A stretch of DNA of 32,000 nucleotides from Labilithrix sp. (GTDB lineage: Bacteria; Myxococcota_A; Polyangia; Polyangiales; Polyangiaceae), in the NCBI GenBank assembly GCA_019637175.1, contig JAHBWD010000035.1, forward strand, positions 5,341-37,340, read 5' to 3'. Shown in pieces: positions 11,116 to 23,621 of the stretch. Under the pieces are notes generated by a model. That model was not told the origin of the DNA and did no database searches. It saw nothing but the letters and a program-made list of their open reading frames with translations. The position numbers were made by a program, and so were the translations under genes. Position 1 is the stretch's first letter. Each line of letters starts with the position of its first letter.

Positions 11116-11147
11116 GGGCCATGGCGTACGGCGCGAGGGCGACCGCG

Positions 11148-14438: not shown

Positions 14439-14467
14439 CCGCCCGGGGTTACCCCGAGGCGGTTTTC
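14439..14467 (+). terminator. hairpin plus short T-run (possible intrinsic terminator)
   Basis: ccgcccgggg-tta-ccccgaggcgg followed by tttt. Confidence 0.45.
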
Positions 14468-14831: not shown

Positions 14832-14887
14832 CAGCCTCCGTCCGTCTTCTCTCTCTCGTTCACGCGCTCTCACGAGCGCGCGATCGC

Positions 14888-14961
14888 GGGTCCGTAGCGC
14901 AACCGGCAAGCGCACTCGACTCTTAATCGAGGTGGTGAGGGTTCGAGTCCCTCCGGACCTA
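14888..14961 (+). tRNA. tRNA-Lys(CTT)
   Basis: Acceptor gggtccg/cggacct. Anticodon stem ctcga/tcgag, loop ctCTTaa. T-loop ttcgagt. Confidence 0.8.
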
Positions 14962-14984
14962 CGGGCGACGTCCGTCGCCGACAC

Positions 14985-15059
14985 TCCGGGATCGTCTAGC
15001 TGGCAGGACACTGGCCTCTGAACCCAGAAACACAGGTTCGAATCCTGTGCCCGGAACCA
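14985..15059 (+). tRNA. tRNA-Gln(CTG)
   Basis: Acceptor tccggga/gcccgga (7-66 mismatch). Loop ctCTGaa. T-loop ttcgaat. CCA encoded. Confidence 0.65.
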
Positions 15060-15163
15060 AGGCTCTCCTCTTTCGAGGGAGCCCTCGCTCTCTGAAAACT
15101 TGGCGCCAATCGACTCGTCCGCGCGCGCGGAGCGCGAGCTTCACGCTCGCGGGCGAGTCTCAT

Positions 15164-15236
15164 TCCAGCGAAGCCGAATGGTCAGGCAGCCGGCTGTTAA
15201 CCGGTCCCTTCGAAGGTTCGATTCCTTCCGCTGGAG
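15164..15236 (+). tRNA. tRNA-Asn(GTT)
   Basis: Acceptor tccagcg/cgctgga. Anticodon stem gccgg/ccggt, loop ctGTTaa. T-loop ttcgatt. Confidence 0.75.
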
Positions 15237-15239
15237 CTC

Positions 15240-15371
15240 TCGCCCTCTCGGCAGAGGCCCTACACGCACCTGGTGATGCTGGTTCGACTCCAGCCCACGG
15301 CTTCGGCCGCGGTCGTCCAACGGCAGGACCCCCGAATGTCAATCGGAACGACGGCTTCTCCACTCGGGCGA
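15240..15371 (+). ncRNA. structured module A: permuted tRNA-like RNA (candidate Y RNA)
   Basis: Closing stem tcgccc/gggcga. Box ccctacacgca at 15258-15268. The order is then: T-arm gctgg-ttcgact-ccagc; acceptor 3' strand ccacggc; ttcg loop; acceptor 5' strand gccgcgg; D-arm gtcc/ggac; hairpin with loop atGTCaa. Confidence 0.5.
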
Positions 15372-15376
15372 AAACT

Positions 15377-15447
15377 GCCCATGTAACTCGATGGTCGAGC
15401 ACCCGCCTCGTACGCGGTGTGAGCCGGTTCGACTCCGGACGTGGGCT
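15377..15447 (+). tRNA. tRNA-Thr(CGT)
   Basis: Acceptor gcccatg/cgtgggc. Loop ctCGTac. T-loop ttcgact. Confidence 0.7.
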
Positions 15448-15452
15448 CTCGT

Positions 15453-15618
15453 TTCATCCACCCGAACAGACCCTACACGCAAAAACAAAGTTGGTTCGAC
15501 TCCAACCGCCTACCCCGACGGCCCTGCAAGGCCGTCTCGCATCACGGTGGGCGTAGCCTAACGGTAAGGCAATCGTTTATTGGACGATAATCCCACCCGG
15601 TTTGCTCACTCGGATGGA
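15453..15618 (+). ncRNA. structured module B: permuted tRNA-like RNA (candidate Y RNA)
   Basis: Closing stem ttcatcc/ggatgga. Box ccctacacgca. T-arm gttgg-ttcgact-ccaac. An 8-bp acceptor-like stem cgcctacc/ggtgggcg is capped by a 31-nt insert containing its own hairpin. D-arm gcc/ggc. Hairpin atcgt-ttattgg-acgat. Confidence 0.5.
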
Positions 15619-15796
15619 ACGCATCCTCTCCCCGCCGCGTACGGCGGGTCCCCTTTCAATCCGGCCGCTATAACGTTGCGCCTCGCGCGCAGCCCCGCCG
15701 TCGGATCCTGCCCCGCCGCGAGCTTCGTCGGCGCGGGTCTCGTCTCATCAGGAGGCTGGCGCGTGAGCGCAAGCCGCGCCGCCTCCGACCTCTTCC

Positions 15797-15868
15797 GCCC
15801 ACGCAGCTCGAGAGCCGAGCGTCCTGGCTTGTACCCAGGAAGATCTGGTGCGACTCCAGACGTGGGCT
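15797..15868 (+). tRNA. tRNA-Thr(TGT), non-canonical elbow
   Basis: Acceptor gcccacg/cgtgggc. Anticodon stem cctgg/ccagg, loop ctTGTac. T-loop tgcgact (G55). D-loop gagagcc lacks GG. Confidence 0.6.
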
Positions 15869-15883
15869 CCGCCGAAATCCTCT

Positions 15884-15958
15884 ACCCCCGTCATCTAGCG
15901 GCAAGGAGCTCCGTCTTTCAATCGGAGGGCGTCGGTTCGAATCCGATCGGGGGTGCCA
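15884..15958 (+). tRNA. tRNA-Glu(TTC)
   Basis: Acceptor acccccg/cgggggt. Loop ctTTCaa. T-loop ttcgaat. CCA encoded. Weak D stem. Confidence 0.7.
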
Positions 15959-16034
15959 GGGCTGTGAGCTGGTCGCAGGATAGCGTCTGCCTGAAGAGCA
16001 GAAGAACGTGGTGCAAGCCCACGACAGCCCACCA
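15959..16034 (+). tRNA. tRNA-Phe(GAA)
   Basis: Starts directly after the preceding CCA. Acceptor gggctgt/acagccc. Anticodon stem tctgc/gcaga, loop ctGAAga. T-loop tgcaagc (G55). CCA encoded. Confidence 0.7.
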
Positions 16035-16116
16035 TCGAAAGCTCGATATCGTCGATATCGAAGAACGACGAACATCGCACTTGCAAAGTGAGGTAGCGAG
16101 ACACATATGAATGTAC

Positions 16117-16189
16117 GGTGGCGTTACTCGTCTAGTGACGAGGACTGGCCGTGACCCAGTGGAGGCGGGTGCAATCCCCGTACGTCACC
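16117..16189 (+). tRNA. tRNA-His(GTG) with G-1, C33 and G55
   Basis: G-1 lies opposite C73. Acceptor gtggcgt/acgtcac. Anticodon stem actgg/ccagt, loop ccGTGac. T-loop tgcaatc. D-loop tctagtga. Confidence 0.7.
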
Positions 16190-16326
16190 CCTCAGCCGCC
16201 GAGCTTCGTTCGGCGACTTCGTCCCTCTCTCGTGGGAGCTTCGCTCCCCTCATCGGCGAAGCCGATGAGCCTCCTCTCCTTCGCCTGCGGCGAAACCGAG
16301 CTTCGCTCGGCAGGAGAGGCATCCAG

Positions 16327-16398
16327 GTCCTCGTGGCCGAGCGGATAGGCAGCGGTTTCCTAAACCGCCACAGGCAGGTTCGAGTCCTGCCGGGGACG
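16327..16398 (+). tRNA. tRNA-Arg(CCT)
   Basis: Acceptor gtcctcg/cggggac. Anticodon stem gcggt/accgc, loop ttCCTaa. T-loop ttcgagt. Confidence 0.75.
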
Positions 16399-16423
16399 CG
16401 ACACGCAACGAAACGATTCTCAC

Positions 16424-16495
16424 GCCTCGTGATGCGCCCGGCGGCGCAACCCCACTGTCTATGGGACGAGACGGGTTCGACTCCCGTACGAGGCG
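16424..16495 (+). tRNA. tRNA-Asp(GTC)
   Basis: Acceptor gcctcgt/acgaggc. D stem tgcg/cgca. Loop ctGTCta. T-loop ttcgact. Confidence 0.75.
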
Positions 16496-16501
16496 CTGCA
16501 T

Positions 16502-16575
16502 GCGTCGCAGAGTCATGGTGACCGGCCGAGCCTCCAAAACTCGGAGAGAGGGTTCGATTCCTTCGCGACGTGCCA
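16502..16575 (+). tRNA. tRNA-Trp(CCA)
   Basis: Acceptor gcgtcgc/gcgacgt. Loop ctCCAaa with a 31-39 C-A mismatch. T-loop ttcgatt. CCA encoded. Poor D-arm. Confidence 0.65.
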
Positions 16576-16588
16576 GAGGTGACCGTTC

Positions 16589-16792
16589 ATGACGACCTGC
16601 ACCTTCTGCTCGGGCCCCGCGCATCCCTCCACGGGCTGCGTGTACGGACCGAGAACCCTCGCGTGCCGCGCGTGCACCGTCCGCTTCTGGACGTGGCTCC
16701 GCCAGCACGTGAACAAGGCTCCTCGCCGCCGCCCTGGCCGCGTGGTCCCTTCCCTCACGTTCTACGAGGCCGCCACGAAGTGGCGAGCCTAG
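16589..16792 (+). CDS. small Cys-rich (zinc-ribbon-like) hypothetical protein
   Basis: 67 aa. CxxC...C...CxxC pattern (CTFC, C17, CRAC). GAGGTG Shine-Dalgarno-like sequence about 8 nt upstream of the ATG. Sits between tRNA-Trp and tRNA-Ala. Confidence 0.55.
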   Translation: MTTCTFCSGPAHPSTGCVYGPRTLACRACTVRFWTWLRQHVNKAPRRRPGRVVPSLTFYEAATKWRA

Positions 16793-16816
16793 GCCGACGG
16801 ACCTCCGCGGCCATCT

Positions 16817-16890
16817 GGGGCGGTATTTCAATAGGAGAATTCTGCTCTCGCACAGCAGGGATCGGGGTGCAATTCCCCGTCGCTCCACCA
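16817..16890 (+). tRNA. tRNA-Ala(CGC)
   Basis: Acceptor ggggcgg/tcgctcc with G3-U70. Anticodon stem ctgct/agcag, loop ctCGCac. T-loop tgcaatt (G55). CCA encoded. Confidence 0.7.
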
Positions 16891-16902
16891 GACATCACGA
16901 AT

Positions 16903-16975
16903 GGGGTCGTAGCTCAGCCAGGAGAGCATCTCGATGGCATCGAGAAGGTTGCCGGTGCAATTCCGGTCGACTCCA
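16903..16975 (+). tRNA. tRNA-Ala(GGC)
   Basis: Acceptor ggggtcg/cgactcc with G3-U70. Anticodon stem tctcg/cgaga, loop atGGCat. T-loop tgcaatt (G55). Confidence 0.75.
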
Positions 16976-17003
16976 CGAAGTACATATTCACGAATACCCA
17001 TAC

Positions 17004-17078
17004 GCTGGCATCGTCCAAGAGTGAGGACCTCAGTCTTCCAAACTGATGATGAGGGTGCGAATCCCTCTGCCCGCTCCA
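17004..17078 (+). tRNA. tRNA-Gly(TCC)
   Basis: Acceptor gctggca/tgcccgc (3-70 mismatch). D stem gtcc/ggac with loop aagagtga. Loop ctTCCaa. T-loop tgcgaat (G55). U73 and CCA present. Confidence 0.7.
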
Positions 17079-17231
17079 CTCTCCTCTTCCCCTGCTCTTC
17101 TGGCCCCGGCGCGCTCCGCGCGACGGTTCGCCGAAGGCGAAAGGGGGGAGGACTCCACGCGCAGCGTGGAGGGGGGACGCAGTCCCCCACGAGACAGAAG
17201 GAAACGAGAGCGCGCAGCGCTCTCGCTTTTC

Positions 17232-17302
17232 GAGCCGATTCTCTGAGAGGTCCGTGGTCTGCAAAACCGCGTATGAGGGTTTGATTCCCTCTCGGCTCTC
17301 CA
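17232..17302 (+). tRNA. tRNA-Cys(GCA)
   Basis: Acceptor gagccga/tcggctc. Anticodon stem gtggt/accgc, loop ctGCAaa. T-loop tttgatt (U56). U73 and CCA present. Weak D-arm. Confidence 0.65.
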
Positions 17303-17322
17303 AAAAGGAAATCATGACGAGC

Positions 17323-17395
17323 GGATCACGACGGGATGGTTACCCTGGGCTCTCTGATAAGGAGCCTGCACCGTGTTCGATTCACGGGTGATCCA
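17323..17395 (+). tRNA. tRNA-Ile(GAT)
   Basis: Acceptor ggatcac/gtgatcc. D stem cggg/cctg. Loop ctGATaa. T-loop ttcgatt. Confidence 0.8.
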
Positions 17396-17415
17396 CGACG
17401 AGCTCCACGAGAGAT

Positions 17416-17488
17416 GCGGCGCTGGCGGTCTAGTGACTGCGCTTGCTCGACAAGCAGGAACAGGCGGGTGCGATCCCCGCGCGCCGTA
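17416..17488 (+). tRNA. tRNA-Val(GAC) with C33 and G55
   Basis: Acceptor gcggcgc/gcgccgt. D stem gcgg/ctgc with loop tctagtga. Anticodon stem cttgc/gcagg, loop tcGACaa. T-loop tgcgatc. Confidence 0.65.
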
Positions 17489-17495
17489 CCGAGAG

Positions 17496-17567
17496 CTGGG
17501 CATAGTTCAGAGGCCAGATCACTCCCCTCGGAAGGGAGAGACGGAGGTTCGAGTCCTCCTGCCCAGA
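17496..17567 (+). tRNA. tRNA-Pro(CGG)
   Basis: C1-G72 acceptor ctgggca/tgcccag. Anticodon stem ctccc/gggag, loop ctCGGaa. T-loop ttcgagt. A73. Confidence 0.8.
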
Positions 17568-17577
17568 CTGATTTCAC

Positions 17578-17650
17578 GCCGATGTAGCCCAATAGGCAGA
17601 GGTACCCGTCTCAGAAACGGGGGGTGAGGGTTCGAATCCCTCCTTCGGCA
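17578..17650 (+). tRNA. class-I (short variable loop) tRNA with Leu anticodon CAG
   Basis: Acceptor gccgatg/cttcggc (6-67 mismatch). D-arm gcccaataggcagagg. Anticodon stem cccgt/acggg, loop ctCAGaa. Only 4-5 nt variable region. T-loop ttcgaat. A73. Confidence 0.55.
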
Positions 17651-17666
17651 CTACGTCTCTCGAAAT

Positions 17667-17750
17667 GTCACCGTGGTGGAACGGCATACACACCAGCTTG
17701 AGGTGCTGGGCTCCCTACGGAGTGTGAGGGTTCGAATCCCTCCGGTGACA
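17667..17750 (+). tRNA. tRNA-Leu(GAG), class II
   Basis: Acceptor gtcaccg/cggtgac. Anticodon stem ccagc/gctgg, loop ttGAGgt. Long variable arm ctcc-ctac-ggag. T-loop ttcgaat. Confidence 0.8.
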
Positions 17751-17843
17751 CTACTGGCGCGCGCATCCCCGAAACGACTCTTCTCTGCTGATCCCGAACC
17801 TTGCTCCTCGAAGGAGATGAAAGTGAAAAAGCGAAGGTGACCC

Positions 17844-18377
17844 ATGCAAACGCTGATGCTGACCCCGTGGATGGCGCCGCACAAGATCATCTCGTGGCAA
17901 CGCGCCGTCGTTCTCGCGTACCTCGGCAAGGTCGAGGTCATCGAGACTTGGGACTGCGATCTCCGCGGCCCCAGCGTCTCGATGAAGGCGCCGTCCGTCG
18001 TGCGTCTCACGAAGGGGTCGGTCTCGACGAAGCAGTCGGTGCGCTTCTCGCGCATCAACGTCTTCACGCGTGACAAGTTCCGCTGCCAGTACTGCGGCGA
18101 GCGGAAGCCCATCAAGCAACTGAACTACGACCACGTGATCCCGCGCGTGCGCGGCGGAAAGACGGTCTGGGAGAACATCGTCACTTCCTGCTACGCGTGC
18201 AACGATCGCAAGGGGAGCCGCACTCCCGAGGAGGCCGGCATGAAGCTGCTCCGCAAGCCGCTCAAGCCGGACACCCTCCCCGTGGTGCCGCCGATCCGCC
18301 TCGACGAGGGTGACCTGCCCGAGCAATGGGAGCCGTACTGCGGCGACCTGGCTCGGCTGATGTCCCTCTCGGCGTGA
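17844..18377 (+). CDS. HNH endonuclease (small McrA-like family)
   Basis: 177 aa. CQYCG...YDHVIPRVRGGKTVWENIVTSCYACNDRK, an HNH/ββα-Me motif with two CxxC pairs. AAGGTGA Shine-Dalgarno upstream of the ATG. Confidence 0.85.
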   Translation: MQTLMLTPWMAPHKIISWQRAVVLAYLGKVEVIETWDCDLRGPSVSMKAPSVVRLTKGSVSTKQSVRFSRINVFTRDKFRCQYCGERKPIKQLNYDHVIPRVRGGKTVWENIVTSCYACNDRKGSRTPEEAGMKLLRKPLKPDTLPVVPPIRLDEGDLPEQWEPYCGDLARLMSLSA

Positions 18378-18460
18378 AAGCGCTGCGCCCGTCATCCGAC
18401 GTGCGCTCCCGCGTCCTGGCCCAAGACGAAATAAACTGGGCCTCCTATTCTTCAAACGAT

Positions 18461-18535
18461 CAGGGCGTAGCTTAGCCTGGCAAAAGCGTCAGTCTGGGGG
18501 ACTGAAGAGCGCAGGTTCGAATCCTGCCGTCCTGA
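18461..18535 (+). tRNA. tRNA-Pro(GGG)
   Basis: Acceptor cagggcg/cgtcctg. D stem gctt/aagc. Anticodon stem tcagt/actga, loop ctGGGgg. T-loop ttcgaat. Confidence 0.8.
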
Positions 18536-18548
18536 CTACGTCGATATC

Positions 18549-18631
18549 GGAAGGTACATCCGCGAGGCGCGGAGATCGCCTGGAACGCGATTCGCACCGC
18601 CAGGTGCGAGGTTCGAGTCCTCTGCCTTCCT
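18549..18631 (+). tRNA. tRNA-Ser(GGA), class II
   Basis: Acceptor ggaaggt/gccttcc. Anticodon stem atcgc/gcgat, loop ctGGAac. Variable arm cacc-gcca-ggtg. T-loop ttcgagt. Confidence 0.7.
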
Positions 18632-18656
18632 CTGCTCTCGACTGCATCCTCGAAAC

Positions 18657-18741
18657 GGAAGAGAAACTGGCTGGGAGCCAGGACTGCCTCGAAAGCAGTA
18701 CGCACCTTCACGGGTGTGGGGTTCGAGACCTCTCTCTTCCT
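18657..18741 (+). tRNA. tRNA-Ser(CGA), class II
   Basis: Acceptor ggaagag/ctcttcc. D stem ctgg/ccag. Anticodon stem actgc/gcagt, loop ctCGAaa. Long variable arm. T-loop ttcgaga. Confidence 0.7.
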
Positions 18742-18758
18742 CTCTCGCCTCTCTTTTT

Positions 18759-18831
18759 CTCCTTGCTGGTGGCTCCAGGCATTGGTCTACGAAGCCGATT
18801 TTCCCAGGTTCGATTCCTGGCAGGGAGACCA
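18759..18831 (+). pseudogene. degenerate tRNA-like element (anticodon arm not foldable)
   Basis: Good acceptor ctccttg/cagggag, T-arm ccagg-ttcgatt-cctgg and CCA. The anticodon arm pairs poorly and the variable region is only 2-3 nt. Confidence 0.4.
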
Positions 18832-18838
18832 ACGATTT

Positions 18839-18973
18839 CGATCGCCCATCCCGAACGTGCCTACAAGCAACCGTCCTGAAAAGACGGGGAACACGAAACG
18901 TCCGAGCCCTCGAAGCGTCGAGCGCTCCGACGTTTCGTGATCCCTCCCAACGCACGATCGACTCGGGCGATCG
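18839..18973 (+). ncRNA. structured module C (box-containing, no T-arm)
   Basis: 9-bp closing stem cgatcgccc/gggcgatcg. atcccgaac plus box cctacaagcaa. Anticodon-arm-like hairpin ccgtc-ctgaaaa-gacgg. A 15-bp hairpin at 18892-18939. Confidence 0.45.
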
Positions 18974-18980
18974 CAAAAAT

Positions 18981-19053
18981 ACCTTCGTCCTGGCGGAATC
19001 CAGGCGCGAGCCTCCGAAGCTCGTTGCTCCCGGTTCGACTCCGGGCGGAGGTG
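18981..19053 (+). tRNA. tRNA-Arg(CCG)
   Basis: Acceptor accttcg/cggaggt. D stem ctgg/ccag with a 6-nt loop. Anticodon stem cgagc/gctcg, loop ctCCGaa. T-loop ttcgact. Confidence 0.7.
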
Positions 19054-19057
19054 CTGA

Positions 19058-19132
19058 CGCAGCGTGGGGGAGGAGCGACCCCGCGAGGTTCATGTCCTCG
19101 AGACGCCGGTGCGACTCCGGCCGCTGCTACCA
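19058..19132 (+). tRNA. tRNA-Met(CAT), 1-72 mismatch (initiator-like?)
   Basis: Acceptor cgcagcg/cgctgct with C1 opposite U72. D stem gggg/cccc. Anticodon stem cgagg/cctcg, loop ttCATgt. T-loop tgcgact (G55). CCA encoded. Confidence 0.65.
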
Positions 19133-19134
19133 AG

Positions 19135-19262
19135 GTCATCCAAATACGCCGAGCCTACACGCAACTTGATTCGTCCAATGGATAGGACATCAGCCTCCTA
19201 AGCTGAGCGTCTGGGTTCGAGTCCCAGATCAACCCCCCTCGCGCTCGTCGATCTCGGATGAC
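19135..19262 (+). ncRNA. structured module D: box plus normal-order tRNA-Arg(CCT)-like core (candidate Y RNA)
   Basis: Perfect 7-bp closing stem gtcatcc/ggatgac. Box cctacacgcaa abuts position 3 of a tRNA-like core at 19164-19235 (D stem gtcc/ggac, loop ctCCTaa, T-arm ctggg-ttcgagt-cccag). The core retains only 5 acceptor base pairs. Confidence 0.5.
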
Positions 19263-19270
19263 CTTCCTAT

Positions 19271-19347
19271 GTTTCCGTCGTCTAGACGGCCAAGGACACC
19301 CGCCTCTCAAGTGGGTAACACGGGTTCGAATCCCGTCGGAAACGCCA
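19271..19347 (+). tRNA. tRNA-Glu(CTC)
   Basis: Acceptor gtttccg/cggaaac. Anticodon stem cccgc/gtggg, loop ctCTCaa. T-loop ttcgaat. CCA encoded. Confidence 0.8.
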
Positions 19348-19392
19348 AACCCCAACATCCACGCCCACCACTGGCCCAGAAAGGAGAGAACC

Positions 19393-20982
19393 ATGGCAAA
19401 CAAGCAGCTATTCGCGAGCCCGCGACCGGACGCCGTCAACGAAGCCGGCGGCTTGGCCTACGCGTTCTCTCCCGAGCACGCGCTCGCCCAGTACGCCGCG
19501 ACCGGCACGTTCCACGGGACGTTCTACGCCAGCGACAAAGAGCAGCTCGATCGCGTGTCCGCGTTTGCCAGCGCGTGCTCGCCCGAGCTCGTCGCCAAGA
19601 CCGCCGTCTACTGTCGCGAGCGCGGCAGGATGAAGGACATGCCGGCGTTCCTCGTCGCCCACCTCGCGGCCCGCGACACCGCGATGATGAGCCGGGTGTT
19701 CGCTCGGGTCATCGACGACGGCGTCATGCTCCGCAACTTCGTGCAGATCGTCCGCTCGGGCGTCACCGGCCGAAAGTCGTTCGGCTCGGCCCCCAAGCGC
19801 GCGCTCCGTGCGTGGTTCGCGAGCCGCTCGCCCGACGCGATTTTTCGTCAGTCCATCGGTCAGAGCCCGTCCATGTCGGACGTCATCAAGATGGTTCGCC
19901 CTCCCCCGCGGAACGACAAGGGCGAAGCCGATGCCGTTCGTGAGGCCCTCTACGGCTACCTCATCGGAAAGAACGTGGATCCGGACAAGCTCCCCGCGCT
20001 CGCGCGCGCCTTCGAGGCGTGGAAGCGCAGGACCGGCGGCCTGCCCGACGTGCCCTTCGAGATGCTCACCTCGCTCCCCTTGAGCGCGGAAGACTGGAAG
20101 GCGCTCGCGCGTCGGATGACGACGAATCAGCTCCGGATCAACCTCAACACGCTCCTCCGTCACGGCGTCCTCGACGACCCCGAGATGGTGGACTCCGTGG
20201 CGGCCCGCCTGTCGGACCGCGAGGCGATCCTCCGGGCGCGCATGATGCCGTTCCAGCTCCTCGCCGCGTATCGCGGCGTCGAGGCGCGGATGCCGACGCG
20301 CATCGTCACGGCGATCGCGACGGCGCTCGAGCACGCGGTGTCGAACGTCCCCGAGCTCGTCGGGCGCGTCGTGCTCTGCCCCGACGTGTCGGGATCGATG
20401 CAGTCGCCCGTGACGGGTCACCGCGGGAGCGCGACCACGAAGGTGCGCTGCGTCGACGTCGCGGCCCTCGTGACCGCGGCGATCCTCCGGAAGAACCCGG
20501 GCTCGTCGGTCATTCCGTTCTCCGACGACGTGGTCCCGATGACGAAGCCTCTCGATCCGGGCGGCTCGATCGTCGAGAACGCGGAGATCCTCGCGAGCCT
20601 CCCGAGCGGCGGCACCGCTTGCTCGGCGCCGCTCCGCTGGCTCAACGCGAACGGGAACGCGCCCGACGTCGTCGTCTTCGTCTCGGACAACCAGTCGTGG
20701 TCGGACTTCCGACACCCTTCGCGATCCGCCACGAGCGGCACCGCGATGGCGGAGGAGTGGCAACGCCTTCGGGGCAGGAACCCGAACGCCAAGCTGATCC
20801 TCGTCGACGTCCAGCCCTACGGCACGACGCAGAGCACCTCGCGCGACGCCAAGGGCGAGCGCGACGACGTGCTCGACGTCGGCGGGTTCTCCGACGCGGT
20901 CTTCGACGTCGTCGCGTCGTTCACGCGCGGCGAGCTCGGCGGAGACACGTGGCTTCGCGCGATCGAATCGATCGCGCTCTAG
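19393..20982 (+). CDS. rsr: Ro60-related TROVE-domain / vWA protein (Rsr)
   Basis: 529 aa from MANKQLFAS. The N-terminus is TROVE-like (NEAGGLAYAFSPEHALAQYAATGTFHGTFY). C-terminal vWA MIDAS motif CPDVSGSM. AAGGAGAG Shine-Dalgarno at 19381-19388. Confidence 0.85.
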   Translation: MANKQLFASPRPDAVNEAGGLAYAFSPEHALAQYAATGTFHGTFYASDKEQLDRVSAFASACSPELVAKTAVYCRERGRMKDMPAFLVAHLAARDTAMMSRVFARVIDDGVMLRNFVQIVRSGVTGRKSFGSAPKRALRAWFASRSPDAIFRQSIGQSPSMSDVIKMVRPPPRNDKGEADAVREALYGYLIGKNVDPDKLPALARAFEAWKRRTGGLPDVPFEMLTSLPLSAEDWKALARRMTTNQLRINLNTLLRHGVLDDPEMVDSVAARLSDREAILRARMMPFQLLAAYRGVEARMPTRIVTAIATALEHAVSNVPELVGRVVLCPDVSGSMQSPVTGHRGSATTKVRCVDVAALVTAAILRKNPGSSVIPFSDDVVPMTKPLDPGGSIVENAEILASLPSGGTACSAPLRWLNANGNAPDVVVFVSDNQSWSDFRHPSRSATSGTAMAEEWQRLRGRNPNAKLILVDVQPYGTTQSTSRDAKGERDDVLDVGGFSDAVFDVVASFTRGELGGDTWLRAIESIAL

Positions 20983-21061
20983 CGATCGAGACAACGCGGC
21001 AAATGCCCGCGAGGGTTACATCCTCGGGAAAACCACCTTCGCGACCTTCGTTGCCGCCCTT

Positions 21062-21117
21062 GCTCCTCCTCACGAAAGGTCTTCACGGGAGCTCATTGAG
21101 GAGGAGCCATTCTTTTT
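21062..21117 (+). terminator. hairpin plus T-run downstream of rsr
   Basis: 11-bp stem gctcctcctca/tgaggaggagc with a 24-nt loop, followed by cattcttttt. The next tRNA starts 2 nt later. Confidence 0.6.
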
Positions 21118-21118
21118 C

Positions 21119-21191
21119 GCCGTCCACGCCCAGAGAGCGGGGCACCTCACTGGTAGCGAGGACAAGGAGGGTGCGAGTCCCTCGGACGGCT
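21119..21191 (+). tRNA. tRNA-Thr(GGT)
   Basis: Acceptor gccgtcc/ggacggc. D stem gccc/gggc with loop agagagcg. Loop ctGGTag. T-loop tgcgagt (G55). Confidence 0.7.
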
Positions 21192-21202
21192 CGAATCGTT
21201 TT

Positions 21203-21276
21203 GCGGTGATAGTTCAAGAGTAGAACCTGAGCACGCCACGCTCGAAATCCGGGTGCGATTCCCGGTCACCGCTCCA
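21203..21276 (+). tRNA. tRNA-Gly(GCC) with C33 and G55
   Basis: Acceptor gcggtga/tcaccgc. D stem gttc/gaac with loop aagagta. Anticodon stem tgagc/gctcg, loop acGCCac. T-loop tgcgatt. U73 and CCA present. Confidence 0.65.
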
Positions 21277-21339
21277 GCGCCGAGTCCCCTGCCGTTCACC
21301 GGAGAAGGTGTCGTCGGGGGGCCACGCGCTTCCACTCTT

Positions 21340-21412
21340 CGCTGCGCTCCTGGGCAGGACGACGGGCTTCATATGCCTGCGCGCGACGGCTCGACTCCGT
21401 CCGCAGCGACCA
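21340..21412 (+). tRNA. tRNA-Met/Ile2(CAT), aberrant D-arm
   Basis: Acceptor cgctgcg/cgcagcg. Anticodon stem cgggc/gcctg, loop ttCATat. T-loop ctcgact (C54). CCA encoded. The D region is only 14 nt. Confidence 0.55.
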
Positions 21413-21418
21413 CGACAT

Positions 21419-21490
21419 ACCGGAGTGTTCCAAGGGCAGGATCGGCGGCTTTGAACCGCTCGAGTGGGGGTTCGAATCCCTCCTCCGGTG
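21419..21490 (+). tRNA. tRNA-Gln(TTG)
   Basis: Acceptor accggag/ctccggt. Anticodon stem ggcgg/ccgct, loop ctTTGaa. T-loop ttcgaat. Confidence 0.75.
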
Positions 21491-21497
21491 CGAACGC

Positions 21498-21573
21498 GCG
21501 GGGCGCGCCGTCTGGCGACGGCATCTGCATCACAAGCAGCGCAAGGAGAGTTCGATCCTCTCGCCCCGTACCA
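21498..21573 (+). tRNA. tRNA-Val(CAC)
   Basis: Acceptor gcggggc/gccccgt. D stem gccg/cggc. Loop atCACaa. T-loop ttcgatc. CCA encoded. Confidence 0.75.
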
Positions 21574-21595
21574 CGAATGGAAGATTGGTCTTCGA

Positions 21596-21671
21596 GTCGA
21601 CGTAGCCCAACGGCAGAGGCAGCACGCTCAAACCGTGCGTGATGGGGGTTCGAATCCCTCGGTCGACACCA
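21596..21671 (+). tRNA. class-I (short variable loop) tRNA with Leu anticodon CAA
   Basis: Acceptor gtcgacg/ggtcgac (7-66 mismatch). D-arm gcccaacggcagaggc. Anticodon stem gcacg/cgtgc, loop ctCAAac. 5-nt variable loop. T-loop ttcgaat. A73 and CCA present. Confidence 0.55.
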
Positions 21672-21813
21672 TGGGTTCGAATCCCATGAAGCACCTCGCG
21701 AGGACGCCGGCGCGTCACGCGGAAGCCTCGAGCAGCGGCCTGTTACGCCGCACACGCTCGAGGGCCTTCTCCGCGCGACGTCCGCTCGTCGTTTCCGCAG
21801 CGAGATCCGCTTG

Positions 21814-21956
21814 CTGGTTGCCAGTCGCGCGACTGAAACTCGTGCACGTGTTTGACGCAGGTTCGAATCCTGTCGCCCGCACCGCTCGCTCGCGCGAGCC
21901 CTCCGAAATCATGCGGGCGTAGCTCAGCTAGGTAGAGCAACAGACTGTTAATCTGA
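21814..21956 (+). ncRNA. module E: third permuted tRNA-like locus
   Basis: The order is: hairpin cgcga-ctgaaac-tcgtg; T-arm gcagg-ttcgaat-cctgt; 3' strand cgcccgc; 32-nt cap; perfectly complementary 5' strand gcgggcg; D-arm gctc/gagc; hairpin acaga-ctgttaa-tctga. Confidence 0.4.
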
Positions 21957-22215
21957 AAACGAAGTCGGCGAAGGAAGTCACCCCCCTCTCGAGAGAGAGG
22001 CGCGCTCCCGTCCCGCGATCGAAGCCGCCCTGCCGCAGCTCCGCGGTCGTCCCTCGAAGACCACCGCGAAGCGCCGGCCGACGCCCCTCGATCGCTCGCC
22101 GGCGAGCACGTCGCCCGAACGTGATGGCTTCGAGGCGTTCACGTTCTTGGGTGCCTTCCTTCGAAGGCTCTCCTCCTTCTCTTCTCTTCTCATCTCCTCC
22201 AAGAGGCCACCCACC

Positions 22216-23352
22216 ATGATGAAGATTCTGTTCGTGGATCTCGACGAGCGCGTCGTGGTCCTCCGTCGTGGCCTCCCGGTTCGTGCCCTCGGACCTGGTC
22301 GCCACATCCTGTGGGGCTTCGGCATCACCGAGCGTCGGTGGTCGACCGCGCCCCTCGTGTTCGAGATGCAGCCCGCGCTCCGCGCCGCGCTGCCGCCCGA
22401 CTCTTTCCACGAGATCACGCTCACGCCGAGCGAGCGCGCGATCCTCTGGCGCGACGGCCGTCCCAAGGTCTTCCTCGGCCCCGGCGTCCACCGGTACTGG
22501 GAGGTCGACGACCCGCTCCACGCGCAGGTCATGTCGGTCCACGACGAGATGCCCGAGCTCTCCGCCGAGCTCGCGTCGATCATCCCGCGCGACCAGTACG
22601 TCGAGGTCACCGTGCAAGAGCACCAGCGCGGCCTCCTCCACGTGAAGGGCAAGCTCGCCCGGACGCTCGCGCCCGGTCGCTACACCTTCTGGTCGACGCG
22701 CGAGTCGCCCGTCGCCGTCCAGAGCGTCGACATGCGCGTCGTGCAAGCCACGATCGCGGGCCAGGAGCTCATGACCAAGGACAAGGTCACGCTCCGGCTC
22801 ACCCTCACGGTCGAGTACGCCGTCGAGGATCCGGCCGTCGCCACCCACGCGGTGGAGAACGTCCGCGACGCGATCTACCTGCTCGTCCAGCTCGCCAGCC
22901 GCGAGTTCGTCGCCGGCGTGACGCTCGACGACCTGCTCGCCGGCCGCGACGCGATGACGAAGTACCTCGAGGACGACGTCGCTGGAAAGGCGCGTCGCTT
23001 CGGCGTGCGCGTCGAGCGCGTCGGCGTGAAGGACGTCGTGCTCCCGGGCGAGATGAAGACGCTCCTCAACAAGGTCATCGAGGCCGAGAAGGAAGCGGCC
23101 GCGAACGTCATCCTCCGTCGTGAGGAGACGGCCGCGACGCGCTCTCTGGCGAACACCGCCAAGCTCATGGCCGAGCAGCCGCTGCTCCTGCGGCTGAAGG
23201 AGCTCGACTCGCTCAAGGAGATGGCGGCGAAGATCCACGAGATCAAGCTCGTGGCCTTCGCTCCGGGCATGAACGCGTCGGGCATGAACGCGCTCGTGCC
23301 CTCGGGCTTCCTCGGCCCTGGCCCGGAGGCCTCCTCCAAGGGAGAGGCGTGA
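22216..23352 (+). CDS. SPFH/band-7 (slipin-like) domain protein
   Basis: 378 aa from MMKILFVDL. Central SPFH pattern (TKDKVTLRLTLTVEY...GVRVERVGVKDVVLP) followed by a coiled-coil-like tail. AAGAGG lies upstream. Confidence 0.8.
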   Translation: MMKILFVDLDERVVVLRRGLPVRALGPGRHILWGFGITERRWSTAPLVFEMQPALRAALPPDSFHEITLTPSERAILWRDGRPKVFLGPGVHRYWEVDDPLHAQVMSVHDEMPELSAELASIIPRDQYVEVTVQEHQRGLLHVKGKLARTLAPGRYTFWSTRESPVAVQSVDMRVVQATIAGQELMTKDKVTLRLTLTVEYAVEDPAVATHAVENVRDAIYLLVQLASREFVAGVTLDDLLAGRDAMTKYLEDDVAGKARRFGVRVERVGVKDVVLPGEMKTLLNKVIEAEKEAAANVILRREETAATRSLANTAKLMAEQPLLLRLKELDSLKEMAAKIHEIKLVAFAPGMNASGMNALVPSGFLGPGPEASSKGEA

Positions 23353-23362
23353 CACGTGAACG

Positions 23363-23399
23363 GCCGGGATCTTCTGAAAAGAAAATCCCGGCGTTCTTT
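23363..23399 (+). terminator. hairpin plus T-rich tail after the SPFH gene
   Basis: gccgggat...atcccggc stem followed by gttcttt. Confidence 0.55.
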
Positions 23400-23533
23400 G
23401 GAAGTCAGACCGCAGAGGTTGCGGGCCCGGTTGCTACCCGGTGCGTACCCGAGTCGTTCGGGTATGGCGTTCGAGTCGCCTGATTTCCGCTCGATTTCGA
23501 CGTTCGGCGCCAAGTCTTCGGAGACGCTCGACT

Positions 23534-23621
23534 GGATCGGACGCGGTACTGGCTGGCCGCACGTGGCTGTAACCCACGTTCTTTCACGACACTGGGGGTT
23601 CGAATCCCTCCCGATCCACCA
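23534..23621 (+). tRNA. tRNA-Tyr(GTA), class II
   Basis: Acceptor ggatcgg/ccgatcc. D stem gcgg/ccgc. Anticodon stem cgtgg/ccacg, loop ctGTAac. Long variable region. T-loop ttcgaat. A73 and CCA present. Confidence 0.85.

What the first reader, a model, noticed from the sequence alone, without database searches (positions are those of the whole stretch)
16589..23352. Ro60/Rsr, an HNH nuclease, a zinc-ribbon mini-protein and an SPFH protein are embedded inside the tRNA array
All four CDSs are co-oriented with the tRNAs and have recognisable Shine-Dalgarno sequences. Each is separated from the neighbouring tRNAs by only 13-250 nt. Examples:
- tRNA-Trp ends at 16575 and the small CDS starts at 16589.
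- The rsr terminator T-run ends 2 nt before tRNA-Thr.

Rsr is an RNA quality-control factor that acts with Y RNAs and exoribonucleases. Ro-like genes and tRNA batteries co-occur in some large mycobacteriophages.

The combination suggests one functional module: tRNA supply, RNA surveillance, a nuclease and a membrane-scaffold protein. It could equally be the remnant of a phage or island. I cannot tell which from the sequence alone.
Basis: partly seen in the sequence, partly recalled or inferred. Interest (0 to 1): 0.7.

Follow-up and report, generated by a model that had tools for sequence, protein, structure and literature searches.

The report
tRNA array carrying Ro60, HNH, SPFH
A 9-kb block of 37 tRNA genes in a soil myxobacterium carries an RNA quality-control protein (Ro60/Rsr) with Y-RNA-like partners and an HNH nuclease, a combination shared with distant soil bacteria and a myxophage, while the neighbouring membrane-scaffold (SPFH) gene always travels with its own large tRNA-like leader RNA.

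Summary
Four co-oriented genes lie inside a 37-gene tRNA array (14758-23621) that covers all 20 amino acids: a 67-aa Cys-rich ORF, an HNH nuclease, Rsr/Ro60 (true start 19393) and an SPFH protein (start 22216).

Their linkage to the array differs.
- HNH and rsr are conserved array cargo. The trio recurs in Polyangia, in Pyrinomonadaceae and in Myxococcus phage Mx1. Some Bryobacterales have the array, rsr and YrlA, but no HNH was detected there.
- The HNH is 41% identical to the nuclease next to the Anabaena trn L-array.
There is a stem-only Y-like hairpin 14 nt after the rsr stop codon (20996-21057) and two Y-like RNAs with tRNA-like cores (15239-15370, 15452-15619).
- SPFH is a separate cassette. 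In 10 of 10 loci with DNA, inside or outside arrays, it follows a ~550-nt covarying structured RNA. That RNA is built around a permuted tRNA-like domain and matches no Rfam family.
- The 67-aa gene is probably real but confined to a narrow lineage.

I found no integrase or phage genes among the window ORFs I scanned. Codon usage matches the flanking host genes and the downstream flank is syntenic with relatives, so this is not a recent prophage.

Verdict: a new variant of a known kind, a long tRNA array with Ro60/Y-RNA cargo. Function is inferred, not shown.

The parts
14437..14477 (+). Terminator-like hairpin with a U-rich tail upstream of the array. It is conserved in L003, L004 and L011 and probably insulates the array from upstream transcription.
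   Evidence: Alignment of the 420 nt upstream of the first tRNA-Lys; coordinates.
14683..14714 (+). Conserved block AATCAATCATGyTTCTCAAGCTTGGwATCTA, 44-75 nt upstream of the first tRNA. It contains the palindrome CAAGCTTG. Candidate promoter or operator of the array.
   Evidence: Conserved in the window, L003, L004 and L011 while the surrounding sequence diverges. The sigma-70 consensus scan found nothing here, so the promoter role is inferred.
14758..23621 (+). tRNA array: 37 co-oriented tRNA genes covering all 20 amino acids, 4.2 genes per kb.
   Evidence: The tRNA genes are conserved against L003, L004, L011 and L087 (mean 77% coverage-weighted identity), whereas the spacers are not alignable (8%).
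15239..15370 (+). E1: a Y-RNA-like gene between tRNA-Asn and tRNA-Thr. It has a terminal stem (CGCCC/GGGCG plus AGAGGCC/GGCUUCU), a CUACAC motif, a T arm, a closed acceptor-like stem, a D arm and an anticodon-like hairpin.
   Evidence: Rfam YrlA 25.1 bits, full-length alignment, E 0.08. Model R1 33.8 bits. The terminal-stem pairings are my reading of the sequence; the orthologue alignment shows covariation.
15452..15619 (+). E2: a second, paralogous Y-RNA-like gene with outer helix CAUCC/GGAUG and a 33-nt insertion in the acceptor loop. It overlaps ARAGORN's spurious 93-nt 'tRNA-Asn(att)'.
   Evidence: (34.1 bits).
16589..16792 (+). 67-aa Cys-rich protein gene (CxxC...H...C...CxxC), probably zinc-binding. 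Restricted to a narrow lineage.
   Evidence: Against L001: 81% nt identity, differences by codon position 11/5/21, and 15 synonymous versus 12 non-synonymous codon changes. Eight homologue clusters with invariant C4, C7, H12, C17, C26 and C29. AF2 pLDDT 70; best PDB fold is the ClpX zinc-binding domain, which is weak (E 0.36).
17844..18377 (+). Array-associated HNH endonuclease, between tRNA-Leu(GAG) and tRNA-Pro(GGG).
   Evidence: Pfam. Homologues lie inside rsr-linked arrays in Polyangia (56-90% id), L024 (52%) and Pyrinomonadaceae (39-42%). 41% id, E 8e-31, to the HNH 200 nt upstream of the Nostoc PCC 7120 delta-plasmid trn array. 42% id to the phage Mx1 HNH, which lies between two tRNA-Leu genes.
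19393..20982 (+). rsr (Ro60 orthologue; TROVE + vWA).
20996..21057 (+). Stem-only Y-RNA-like hairpin (YrlB-like), 14 nt after the rsr stop. It has outer helix GCGGCAA/UUGCCGC, a GGCAAAUG motif, a 9-bp helix CGCGAGGGU/ACCUUCGCG and a UACAU motif.
   Evidence: Model R1 25.8 bits, E 1e-5 within the window. The hit spans model positions 1-138 with the tRNA-like domain deleted, and all 8 model pairs are formed. MFE fold. A similar 5' motif follows rsr in L003. The motif is compared with GNCGAAN0-1G of PMC4201824.
21062..21117 (+). Intrinsic-terminator-like hairpin plus T-run after rsr and the Y hairpin.
   Evidence: Sequence. The consensus scanner did not list it because the loop is long.
21670..22215 (+). 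Large structured leader or ncRNA upstream of SPFH. In order it contains a T-arm hairpin (21670-21688), a long hairpin, a permuted tRNA-like core (T arm 21857-21873, closed 7-bp acceptor, D arm, anticodon-like hairpin 21940-21956) and a 3' domain closed by 21967-21977 pairing with 22154-22167.
   Evidence: Seven-locus alignment A7: 146 pairs, 84% of cells paired against 72% in shuffles (0/500), 82 pairs with changes on both sides against 43 (0/500), and slid controls at about 42% paired. Rfam gives only partial YrlA-core hits. A tRNA-like core lies upstream of SPFH in 10 of 10 loci with DNA.
22216..23352 (+). SPFH/Band-7 protein gene (HflK/C-like, below the equivalog cut-off).
23400..23490 (+). 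Non-canonical tRNA-Ser(GCU): 8-bp acceptor stem, 6-bp D stem, long variable arm, 4-bp T stem. It lies immediately 5' of tRNA-Tyr at the end of the array.
   Evidence: Eight-locus alignment: 30 pairs, 8 with compensatory changes. ARAGORN calls it only at relaxed threshold in the window, and at default threshold in L087 and L103.

Best explanation
The locus is a chromosomal long ('L-type') tRNA array: a complete spare set of 37 tRNA genes. Its conserved cargo is the array-associated HNH endonuclease and a Ro60/Rsr-Y RNA ribonucleoprotein.

Shown:
- The composition of the locus.
- Conservation of the array-HNH-rsr-Y RNA combination within Polyangia, and its recurrence in Acidobacteriota and in a myxophage.
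- Purifying selection on the tRNA genes.
- Host-like codon usage and a fixed downstream chromosomal context.

Inferred:
- The array is transcribed from a conserved promoter region about 50-75 nt upstream of the first tRNA-Lys into long precursors.
- RNase P and RNase Z excise the tRNAs. This also releases the Y-like RNAs and the mRNAs for the Zn-binding mini-protein, HNH and Rsr.
- Rsr binds the Y-like RNAs (20996-21057, E1, E2). As in Deinococcus and Salmonella, it acts on misfolded or damaged structured RNAs.
- The array supplies replacement tRNAs under translational stress or tRNA-targeting attack, the role shown for the Anabaena L-array.
- HNH most likely promotes recombinational maintenance or spread of the array, on the SegB/all8564 paradigm.

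SPFH is a separate cassette. The gene always follows a ~550-nt structured RNA built around a YrlA-type tRNA mimic. This cassette has landed in the array in part of the clade and often sits beside rsr, HNH or RtcB elsewhere. I read this as a looser functional tie to the same RNA-repair and translation-stress neighbourhood. The 67-aa gene is a lineage-specific addition.
For: Association with rsr:
- The array has 37 tRNAs for 20 amino acids.
- 23 of 80 rsr loci from different species carry at least 5 co-oriented tRNAs next to rsr. These are the Polyangia, Pyrinomonadaceae, part of the Bryobacterales, and L024. About 50 loci from other phyla have none.
- HNH homologues lie inside those arrays in Polyangia, L024 and Pyrinomonadaceae.

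Y RNAs:
- A canonical YrlA (70-114 bits with model R1) lies close to rsr, 3' of it in all but L024, in 17 array-bearing or related loci. One reaches Rfam's own threshold (L036).
- The window has Y-like RNAs instead.

Links to known systems:
- The HNH is homologous to the Anabaena array-linked nuclease. That gene (all8564) is co-induced with the trn operon under translational stress (PMC8421152).
- HNH is the commonest CDS in Mycobacterium arrays (PMC5966550).
- A TROVE gene is present in 20 of 29 archaeal tRNA clusters (PMC6333295).
- Phage Mx1 and IMG/VR contig L092 carry rsr inside tRNA clusters.
- Other arrays carry RtcB, EF-Tu or GOLLD.

Constraint and context:
- tRNAs are conserved while spacers are not.
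- GC3 is 0.88-0.93, like the flanking genes.
- The 8-kb downstream flank is syntenic in L001-L004 and L011.
- The same four-gene order occurs in another MAG, L103.

SPFH cassette.
Against: - Nothing here is expression or binding data.
- Whether the array is supernumerary could not be tested, because only 32 kb of the genome is available.
- The Rsr tree follows taxonomy. The rsr-array link in different phyla may therefore be independent assembly rather than one transferable module.
- The window lineage lacks a canonical YrlA. Its Y-like RNAs score well below Rfam's threshold (25-42 bits against 69), and the post-rsr hairpin is not evident in L001 or L004.
- Bryobacterales arrays lack a detectable HNH.
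- The HNH could be purely selfish.
- SPFH family members in L089-L091 lie far from any rsr, HNH or tRNA gene.
Confidence: 0.7

Rival explanations
1. Remnant of a prophage or integrated island. A large phage with a tRNA battery, Ro-like gene and HNH (Mx1-like) integrated here and decayed, leaving only these genes.
For: - Mx1 carries a 26-tRNA cluster with TROVE (43.5% id), the same HNH family (42% id) and a peptidyl-tRNA hydrolase.
- IMG/VR contig L092 has rsr in a 31-tRNA cluster.
- L-arrays are reported to spread by HGT (PMC8421152).
- The upstream flank is not syntenic with L003, L004 or L011.
Against: - I found no integrase, recombinase or phage structural genes among the window ORFs I scanned.
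- GC3 of the four genes equals that of the flanking genes.
- The array sits at the same place, before AHSA1 and M18, in at least six related MAGs or contigs, with conserved tRNA order.
- The Rsr tree follows host taxonomy, with Mx1 outside the Polyangia clade.
- The closest viral Rsr is only 46% identical.
An ancient phage-related origin is not excluded. A recent remnant is.
Confidence: 0.12
2. An ordinary housekeeping tRNA operon into which unrelated genes were inserted by chance. On this view there is no functional relation between the tRNAs and the protein genes.
For: - tRNA genes are recombination and integration hot spots.
- SPFH and the 67-aa gene do behave as insertions.
- Whether the array is supernumerary was not testable.
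Against: - HNH and rsr occupy the same tRNA-defined slots (Leu-Leu / HNH / Pro and Glu / rsr / Thr-Gly) across loci whose Rsr is only 66-82% identical.
- The trio recurs with a different tRNA order in another phylum.
- The same HNH family flanks arrays in cyanobacteria, phages and plasmids.
- In relatives, the other cargo genes that got a confident Pfam name are mostly translation or RNA-repair genes (EF-Tu, RtcB).
Confidence: 0.1
3. The permuted tRNA-like element at 21829-21971 is simply the YrlA partner of Rsr, and SPFH is merely the next gene downstream. On this view there is no distinct SPFH leader RNA.
For: - Rfam YrlA 41.8 bits, E 1e-6.
- In L102 the element lies exactly between rsr and SPFH, where YrlA normally sits.
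- A GGCGAAGG motif (compare GNCGAAN0-1G) follows the tRNA-like core.
Against: - The element tracks SPFH, not rsr. It is upstream of SPFH in L089, L090 and L091, where no rsr, HNH or tRNA lies within 6 kb. In L004, the same genome as L089, rsr lacks it.
- It lacks the conserved 5' CGAAUGC / GGAACUACAU and 3' CUUGUCG stem of the 43 canonical YrlA.
- It keeps a local anticodon-like hairpin instead.
- It is embedded in a ~550-nt covarying structure that reaches the SPFH ribosome-binding site.
Confidence: 0.2

Closest known systems
[quoted passage not shown]
   Same: - At least 20 co-oriented tRNA genes at more than 2 per kb, covering nearly all isotypes.
- The same HNH family next to or inside the array (41% id to the Nostoc gene).
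- RNA-repair and translation genes as frequent neighbours (PMC8421152, PMC5966550).
   Different: - Here rsr and Y-like RNAs are embedded as conserved cargo.
- The array is chromosomal, has host-like codon usage and appears vertically inherited within a family-level clade, rather than plasmid- or phage-borne and sporadic.
- My literature searches found no report of bacterial rsr inside arrays.
Archaeal tRNA gene clusters with a TROVE-domain gene (Morgado & Vicente 2019, PMC6333295)
   Same: A TROVE/Ro60-like gene is the commonest protein gene in the tRNA clusters (20 of 29), and HNH genes are in the vicinity.
   Different: - A different domain of life (mostly haloarchaea).
- No Y RNA analysis was reported in the passages I read.
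- Homology of those TROVE genes to this Rsr was not tested here, apart from the Halogranum tailed virus hit at 25% id.
Bacterial Rsr-Y RNA loci (D. radiodurans rsr-yrn; Salmonella rsr-yrlBA-rtcBA; Chen et al. 2014, PMC4201824)
   Same: - A Ro60 orthologue with Y RNAs encoded within a few kb.
- One Y RNA type with a tRNA-like module and one long-hairpin type.
- RtcB is linked in some relatives (L064, L088).
   Different: - The Y-like RNAs are interleaved with genuine tRNA genes.
- The window lineage lacks the canonical YrlA stem motifs.
- E1 and E2 lie about 4 kb upstream of rsr.
Myxococcus phage Mx1 tRNA/TROVE/HNH region (OR576727; PMC10720576)
   Same: A tRNA cluster (26 genes by ARAGORN), a TROVE protein (43.5% id) and the same HNH family flanked by tRNA-Leu genes, all on one strand.
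   Different: - The Mx1 cluster is dispersed among many phage ORFs.
- It includes a peptidyl-tRNA hydrolase.
- No SPFH or 67-aa gene is annotated in the 24-kb stretch I viewed, and model R1 found no strong YrlA there.
Rfam RF02553 YrlA
   Same: The T arm, closed acceptor-like stem and D arm arrangement. My scanner for it finds such cores almost only next to rsr.
   Different: - The window elements score 25-42 bits against a gathering score of 69.
- The SPFH-linked element has its own anticodon-like hairpin.
- It is part of a much larger RNA.

Membership tests
tRNA array unit / L-array | At least 20 tRNA genes at a density of at least 2 per kb (Tran et al. 2016 definition, PMC4758250 abstract) | tested here: met
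   37 tRNA genes in 8.86 kb.
tRNA array unit / L-array | Genes co-oriented and close enough to be co-transcribed | tested here: met
   All are on the + strand. However, an internal terminator-like hairpin follows rsr, and transcription was not tested.
tRNA array unit / L-array | Supernumerary to a dispersed housekeeping tRNA set | not testable with these tools
   Only 32 kb of the genome is available. Indirect hint: array tRNAs score 29-67 bits with RF00005, below the isolated tRNA-Arg genes upstream of the Pyrinomonadaceae arrays (71-75 bits).
tRNA array unit / L-array | Sporadic phylogenetic distribution indicating HGT | tested here: inconclusive
   Distribution is patchy across phyla (Polyangia, Pyrinomonadaceae, some Bryobacterales, L024). 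Within clades it is stable and the Rsr tree follows taxonomy.
tRNA array unit / L-array | Linked HNH endonuclease of the all8564 type | tested here: met
   41% id, E 8e-31, to the HNH gene 200 nt upstream of the 24-tRNA Nostoc delta-plasmid array.
Ro60 / Rsr | TROVE plus vWA architecture, homologous over its length to solved Ro60/Rsr | tested here: met
   Pfam vWA_Ro60 1e-18 and TROVE 5e-6. 2NVO residues 28-534 align to 15-515, E 3e-21. The NCBIfam Rsr equivalog scores far below its cut-off (95 against 900 bits), so this is a divergent subfamily.
Ro60 / Rsr | Y RNA(s) encoded nearby | tested here: met
   A Y-like hairpin lies 14 nt after the stop, and E1 and E2 lie about 4 kb upstream. In relatives a canonical YrlA lies close to rsr, 3' of it in all but L024. 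Binding was not tested.
YrlA (RF02553) | Reaches the Rfam gathering score | tested here: not met
   41.8, 25.1 and no hit for the three window elements, against 69.
YrlA (RF02553) | tRNA-like module: T arm, closed acceptor-like stem, D arm | tested here: met
   Compensatory changes are seen in the T and acceptor stems.
YrlA (RF02553) | Long terminal stem with the 5' GNCGAAN0-1G motif (Chen 2014) | tested here: inconclusive
   - Absent from 21829-21971.
- The hairpin 20996-21057 has GGCAAAUG, a variant also seen in bona fide YrlA of L042, L054 and L059 in alignment A5.
- E1/E2 orthologues have UCGUCCGA paired to UCGGACGA.
SPFH / Band 7 | Band_7 domain above the Pfam threshold | tested here: met
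   105 bits against a 23.6 cut-off.
HflK/HflC (FtsH modulators) | Equivalog-level match | tested here: not met
   TIGR01933 scores 50 bits against a 159 cut-off. Some family members do lie beside FtsH-like genes.
Prophage / genomic island | Integrase, phage structural or mobility genes, and a compositional break | tested here: not met
   None among the ORFs scanned. GC3 matches the flanks. The lower GC of the array (0.65 against 0.70) is explained by the tRNA content.
Anti-phage defence systems (PADLOC) | Specific match of any of the four proteins to a defence-system model | tested here: not met
   Only generic HNH-motif hits, such as PtuB and Cas9.

The most novel reading that the evidence does not exclude
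The ~550-nt RNA upstream of the SPFH gene (21670-22215) is a new class of large structured RNA built around a YrlA-type permuted tRNA mimic. Through that mimic, Ro60/Rsr or tRNA-processing and repair enzymes such as RNase P, CCA-adding enzyme or RtcB would control, or be recruited to, a membrane SPFH scaffold. This would couple RNA surveillance and tRNA damage to membrane-associated proteolysis. The same reading makes the array-HNH-rsr-Y RNA-SPFH neighbourhood a real, if modular, translation-stress island in soil Polyangia.
Probability: 0.25. Interest if true: 0.8.

Novelty: new variant of a known kind. Interest (0 to 1): 0.62.

Why it matters
Long tRNA arrays are widespread but poorly understood. 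The only functional study links one to survival under translational stress. It notes a co-regulated HNH gene next to the array, and that rtcB, found beside L-arrays in other cyanobacteria, is co-regulated too.

The function of bacterial Ro60 and the reason its Y RNAs mimic tRNA are also open questions. Here the two puzzles meet in one conserved locus. Rsr, Y RNAs and the array-type HNH are embedded in complete spare tRNA sets in two bacterial phyla and a phage.

This makes a concrete hypothesis testable: Ro60/Y RNPs police or exploit array-derived tRNAs during translational stress or tRNA-targeted attack. The locus also supplies a candidate new large structured RNA with an embedded tRNA mimic, tied to an SPFH gene.

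Tried and rejected
- From tblastn against the 80 species-representative rsr loci, I first concluded that SPFH was present only in the closest relative. Metagenome contigs overturned this.
- I first took 21829-21971 for the Rsr partner YrlA. I rejected that as the main reading once the element was found with SPFH in rsr-free contexts.
- I tested whether that element is a duplicated 5' half of the local tRNA-Tyr left by an integration event. The sequences are unrelated.
- I treated the 23400-23490 element as a possible Y RNA. It is a non-canonical tRNA-Ser(GCU).
- Sequence searches (blastn, nhmmer) with the Y-like element found only L001. Structure-based scanning was needed.
- The R1 hit at 16835-16968 is a tandem-tRNA false positive of the kind Chen et al. 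warn about, with mismatched helices.
- The sigma-70 promoter scan found nothing in the array region, and terminator counts were not above the shuffled expectation.
- PADLOC and NCBIfam gave no specific family for any of the four proteins.
- MAFFT misaligned the window and L001 elements, so I built no two-sequence model.
- Two review or analysis papers that might mention rsr next to tRNA genes were not held in the library.

Full report
**1. What is there**

The window comes from a MAG assigned to Labilithrix sp. (Myxococcota, Polyangia). The Rsr protein is 100% identical to an NCBI entry of that name on an 87-kb contig.

Between 14758 and 23621, every gene is on the + strand.
- Default ARAGORN tRNAs.
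- Rfam adds two more above threshold.
- Relaxed ARAGORN adds Phe(GAA), His(GTG), Ala(GGC), a second Met and a Ser(GCT).
- tRNA-Trp(CCA), 16502-16575, and tRNA-Thr(GGT), 21119-21191, are readable in the sequence. The Thr gene is called in orthologous positions of L001, L004 and L103.

The total is 37 tRNA genes for all 20 amino acids in 8.9 kb.

The four CDSs of the finding are confirmed by Pfam: HNH_5/HNH, Ro60 vWA + TROVE, and Band_7. The 67-aa ORF has no family.
- Rsr aligns end to end with the solved D. radiodurans Rsr.
- Corrected starts are 19393 for rsr and 22216 for SPFH. All four genes have Shine-Dalgarno-like motifs.

**2. Conserved linkage: rsr and HNH, yes**

A scan of one genome per species with an Rsr alignment returned 80 loci.

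In 23 of them, at least 5 and up to 33 co-oriented tRNA genes lie directly around rsr. These are essentially all Polyangia, all Pyrinomonadaceae, part of the Bryobacterales and one unclassified MAG (L024). About 50 loci from Verrucomicrobiota, Planctomycetota, Neisseriaceae and alphaproteobacteria have none.

A homologue of the window's HNH lies inside these arrays in Polyangia (56-90% id), L024 (52%) and six Pyrinomonadaceae (39-42%).
- In Polyangia it sits in the same slot: tRNA-Leu, tRNA-Leu / HNH / tRNA-Pro.
- rsr sits in tRNA-Glu / rsr / tRNA-Thr-Gly.
- In Pyrinomonadaceae the tRNA order differs, but HNH is again internal (Cys / HNH / Phe) and rsr is at the 3' end.

An NJ tree of Rsr follows taxonomy. 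The association is therefore old within clades. Between phyla it is either ancient or assembled repeatedly.

Against four relatives, the window's tRNA genes are conserved (mean 77% coverage-weighted identity), while the spacers cannot be aligned (8%). The tRNAs are under constraint and are not decaying.

**3. Relation to known arrays and phages**

The HNH is 41% identical (E 8e-31) to the HNH gene 200 nt upstream of the 24-tRNA array on the Nostoc PCC 7120 delta plasmid. By position and description, this is the all8564 gene of Santamaria-Gomez et al. They found it conserved next to cyanobacterial L-arrays and co-induced with the trn operon by translational stress. rtcB, which lies elsewhere in Anabaena but next to L-arrays in other cyanobacteria, is induced in the same way (PMC8421152).

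HNH is also the most widespread CDS in Mycobacterium arrays (PMC5966550). A TROVE gene occurs in 20 of 29 archaeal tRNA clusters (PMC6333295).

Among phages, Myxococcus phage Mx1 is the best hit for both proteins (Rsr 43.5% id, HNH 42% id). The two genes lie 4.5 kb apart within a cluster of 26 tRNA genes that also holds a peptidyl-tRNA hydrolase. The HNH is flanked by two tRNA-Leu genes.
- Virus Rctr197k has four tRNA-Leu genes followed by the HNH.
- Tunturiibacter phage Tunturi_5 has the HNH amid 13 tRNAs, near an RtcB gene.
- An IMG/VR contig (L092) has rsr inside a 31-tRNA cluster.

Four literature searches found no description of bacterial chromosomal rsr inside tRNA arrays.

**4. Not a recent prophage or island**

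- The Pfam scans of the window's largest ORFs found no integrase or phage genes. The flanks encode ComM-like, amine oxidase, AMP-ligase and ketosynthase proteins upstream, and AHSA1, M18 aminopeptidase and a Ser/Thr kinase downstream.
- The 8 kb downstream is syntenic in L001-L004 and L011. The upstream side is not.
- GC3 of the four genes (0.88-0.93) equals that of the flanking genes.

**5.

Rfam gives sub-threshold YrlA hits at 21829-21971 (41.8 bits) and 15252-15363 (25.1 bits). Chen et al. 2014 warn that tandem tRNAs mimic YrlA, so I wrote a scanner for the diagnostic core: a T arm, then a closed 7-bp acceptor-like stem, then a D arm.
- It hit almost exclusively just downstream of rsr in about 50 loci.
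- None of those locus hits overlapped a called tRNA. One window hit (E2) overlaps ARAGORN's spurious tRNA-Asn(att).

An alignment of 43 such elements recovers the YrlA consensus: 5' CGAAUGC..GGAACUACAU and 3' GUUUC..CUUGUCG. A covariance model built from it (R1) finds full-length YrlA (70-114 bits) close to rsr in 17 array-bearing or related loci of Polyangia and Acidobacteriota, 3' of rsr in all but L024. L036 reaches Rfam's own threshold.

The Labilithrix clade, including the window, lacks this canonical copy. The window instead has two kinds of element.

(a) A 62-nt hairpin at 20996-21057, 14 nt after the rsr stop.
- It matches both halves of the YrlA stem with the tRNA-like domain deleted. 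All 8 model pairs are formed, and it carries GGCAAAUG and UACAU motifs. It scores 25.8 bits, E 1e-5 in the window.
- This resembles the long-hairpin Y RNAs (YrlB, Yrn2) described by Chen et al..
- L003 has a similar motif after rsr. L001 and L004 do not obviously.

(b) Two paralogous elements, E1 (15239-15370) and E2 (15452-15619).
- Each has a terminal stem, a CUACAC motif and a tRNA-like core.
- Their orthologues in L003, L004 and L011 carry 5' UCGUCCGAyCGAG paired to 3' CUCGGACGA.
- The outer helix covaries: CGUCCGA/UCGGACG, CAUCC/GGAUG, CGCCC/GGGCG.

These are candidates only. No binding data exist, and the R1 E-values are rough.

**6. SPFH is a separate cassette with a large tRNA-like leader**

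The first tblastn suggested that SPFH was confined to L001. A protein search then showed many SPFH homologues (60-78% id) on contigs of the same length as those holding the Rsr homologues. The contexts retrieved are as follows.
- HNH-rsr-SPFH-AHSA1-M18 in L087 and in one contig without DNA.
- Small ORF-HNH-rsr-SPFH in L103.
- rsr ... YrlA-HNH-tRNA-Leu-SPFH-RtcB in L088.
- rsr-SPFH with no tRNAs in L102.
- tRNAs-SPFH-tRNA-Pro-HNH in L101.
- SPFH with no rsr, HNH or tRNA within 6 kb in L089, L090 and L091. L089 is from the same genome as L004, whose array lacks SPFH. In L090 and L091 the neighbours are FtsH-ternary-system genes.

In all 10 loci with DNA, model R1 finds a tRNA-like core 210-400 nt upstream of the SPFH start.

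The orthologous cores share four features:
- a T arm;
- a closed 7-bp acceptor stem with three to five covarying pairs;
- a D arm;
- a local anticodon-like hairpin, CAGRCUGUNANYCUG, with one compensatory change.

Aligning the whole ~550-nt upstream region from seven loci gives a 146-pair consensus structure.

| Measure | Observed | Shuffled | Shuffles reaching observed |
|---|---|---|---|
| Cells paired | 84% | 72% | 0/500 |
| Pairs changed on both sides | 82 | 43 | 0/500 |

- Versions with the 3' partner slid by 1-3 columns drop to about 42% paired and 30-36 such pairs.
- Caveats: the structure was derived from the same alignment, there are only seven sequences, and the region is GC-rich.
- Rfam recognises only the tRNA-like core.

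I conclude that 21829-21971 belongs to the SPFH cassette rather than to rsr. The cassette has moved into the array in part of the clade. Homology between tRNA-like segments is a plausible route, but that is inference.

**7. The 67-aa ORF**

- Against L001, the ORF has 81% nt identity with differences at codon positions 11/5/21, and 15 synonymous against 12 non-synonymous codon changes.
- Eight homologue clusters (61-86% id, 67-72 aa) keep C4, C7, H12, C17, C26 and C29.
- In L103 it again follows tRNA-Trp.
- The AF2 model is of moderate quality (pLDDT 70). Its best PDB matches are ClpX zinc-binding domains, at non-significant E-values.
- It is absent from L003, L004 and L011, where Trp and Ala are about 45-60 nt apart.

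This is a real gene, probably zinc-binding, and lineage-specific. Its function is unknown.

**8. How it most likely works (inference)**

A conserved block (14683-14714, with the palindrome CAAGCTTG) preceded by a terminator-like hairpin (14437-14477) marks a probable start of an independent transcription unit.

tRNA processing would release the intervening Y-like RNAs and mRNAs. The hairpin and T-run at 21062-21117 may attenuate transcription after rsr. How the distal tRNAs are transcribed is open.

By analogy with the Anabaena array and with the Rsr/Y RNA/PNPase and rsr-rtcBA systems, the module would supply spare tRNAs and handle misfolded or damaged tRNAs during translational stress or tRNA-targeted attack. 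Other cargo in related arrays fits that theme: RtcB in L064 and L088, EF-Tu in L008, and GOLLD RNA in L064.

**9. Verdict**

Rsr, HNH and the Y RNAs are conserved array cargo. SPFH is a recurrent but autonomous neighbour with its own tRNA-like RNA. The small ORF is a lineage-specific addition. A recent phage remnant is unlikely.
- The locus is a new variant of a known kind of system. Its by-product, a large structured SPFH leader with an embedded tRNA mimic, may be new.

Noticed in passing
window 23400-23490 (also L001 8004-8100, L003 12517-12612, L004 12356-12450, L011 12314-12410, L005, L007, L008, L087 11169-11259, L103 15428-15515): A conserved non-canonical tRNA-Ser(GCU) with an 8-bp acceptor stem, a 6-bp D stem with a 4-nt loop, a long variable arm and only a 4-bp T stem. 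This is tRNA-Sec-like or 'allo-tRNA'-like 8/4 geometry; the allo-tRNA comparison is from my recall, not tested. U33 is replaced by C in several copies. It always lies immediately 5' of tRNA-Tyr at the end of the array. Default ARAGORN and Rfam miss it in the window.
   Followed up: partly
L064 1714-2193: A GOLLD RNA (176 bits, above Rfam's threshold) sits inside the Pyrinomonadaceae tRNA array. The same array also carries an RtcB gene (L064 2596-3774).
   Followed up: no
L008 8635-9873; L010 5163-8006; L029 5567-6220: Other protein cargo inside rsr-linked arrays: a full EF-Tu gene (L008), ARPP-1/ARPP-2 and vWA-like proteins (L010), and a class I methyltransferase (L029).
   Followed up: partly
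window 17578-18377; L081 14951-15926; L082 3402-4549; L085 2088-2677: Recurrent adjacency of tRNA-Leu genes and this HNH family. Examples are the window and all Labilithrix-clade arrays (Leu, Leu / HNH), phage Mx1 (Leu / HNH / Leu), virus Rctr197k (four Leu / HNH) and cyanophage S-CRM01 (a tRNA-Leu overlapping another HNH gene). This may indicate a tRNA-Leu-associated homing site or a mobile Leu-HNH cassette.
   Followed up: no
window 14683-14714: The conserved upstream block contains the perfect palindrome CAAGCTTG. This may be an operator for a dimeric regulator. The Anabaena array is controlled through repeats overlapping the promoter (PMC8421152).
   Followed up: no
L090 1-9216 and L091 1-10967: In two contigs, the SPFH gene with its tRNA-like leader is inserted among genes of an FtsH ternary conflict system (fvmX3, fvmX5, fvmX6, fvmX7, an AAA/Peptidase_M41 protein and a radical SAM protein).
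   Followed up: no
window 23666-24427: The AHSA1-domain protein just downstream of the array has a long C-terminal tail of AKPAPK-type repeats. The gene is the conserved 3' neighbour of the array in the Labilithrix clade.
   Followed up: no
window 5288-13202: About 8 kb of biosynthetic-looking genes (amine oxidase, AMP-binding enzyme, ketosynthase) separate the ComM-like gene from the array. In L087 and L103, ComM lies only about 1 kb upstream of the array. This suggests an insertion at the 5' border of the array in this genome.
   Followed up: partly
window 15546-15638, 16502-16575, 21119-21191: ARAGORN at default settings miscalls part of Y-like element E2 as a 93-nt tRNA-Asn(att). It also misses tRNA-Trp and tRNA-Thr(GGT). 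Many array tRNAs have unusual T loops (e.g. UGCAAUU, UGCGAGU) and low RF00005 scores.
   Followed up: partly
L082 1171-1234 (virus Rctr197k): A YrlA-like core (42 bits with R1) whose D arm, UAGCCUAACGGUAAAGGC, closely resembles that of window element E2. It lies next to the phage's tRNA cluster and HNH. I did not check whether this phage has a Ro60 gene.
   Followed up: no
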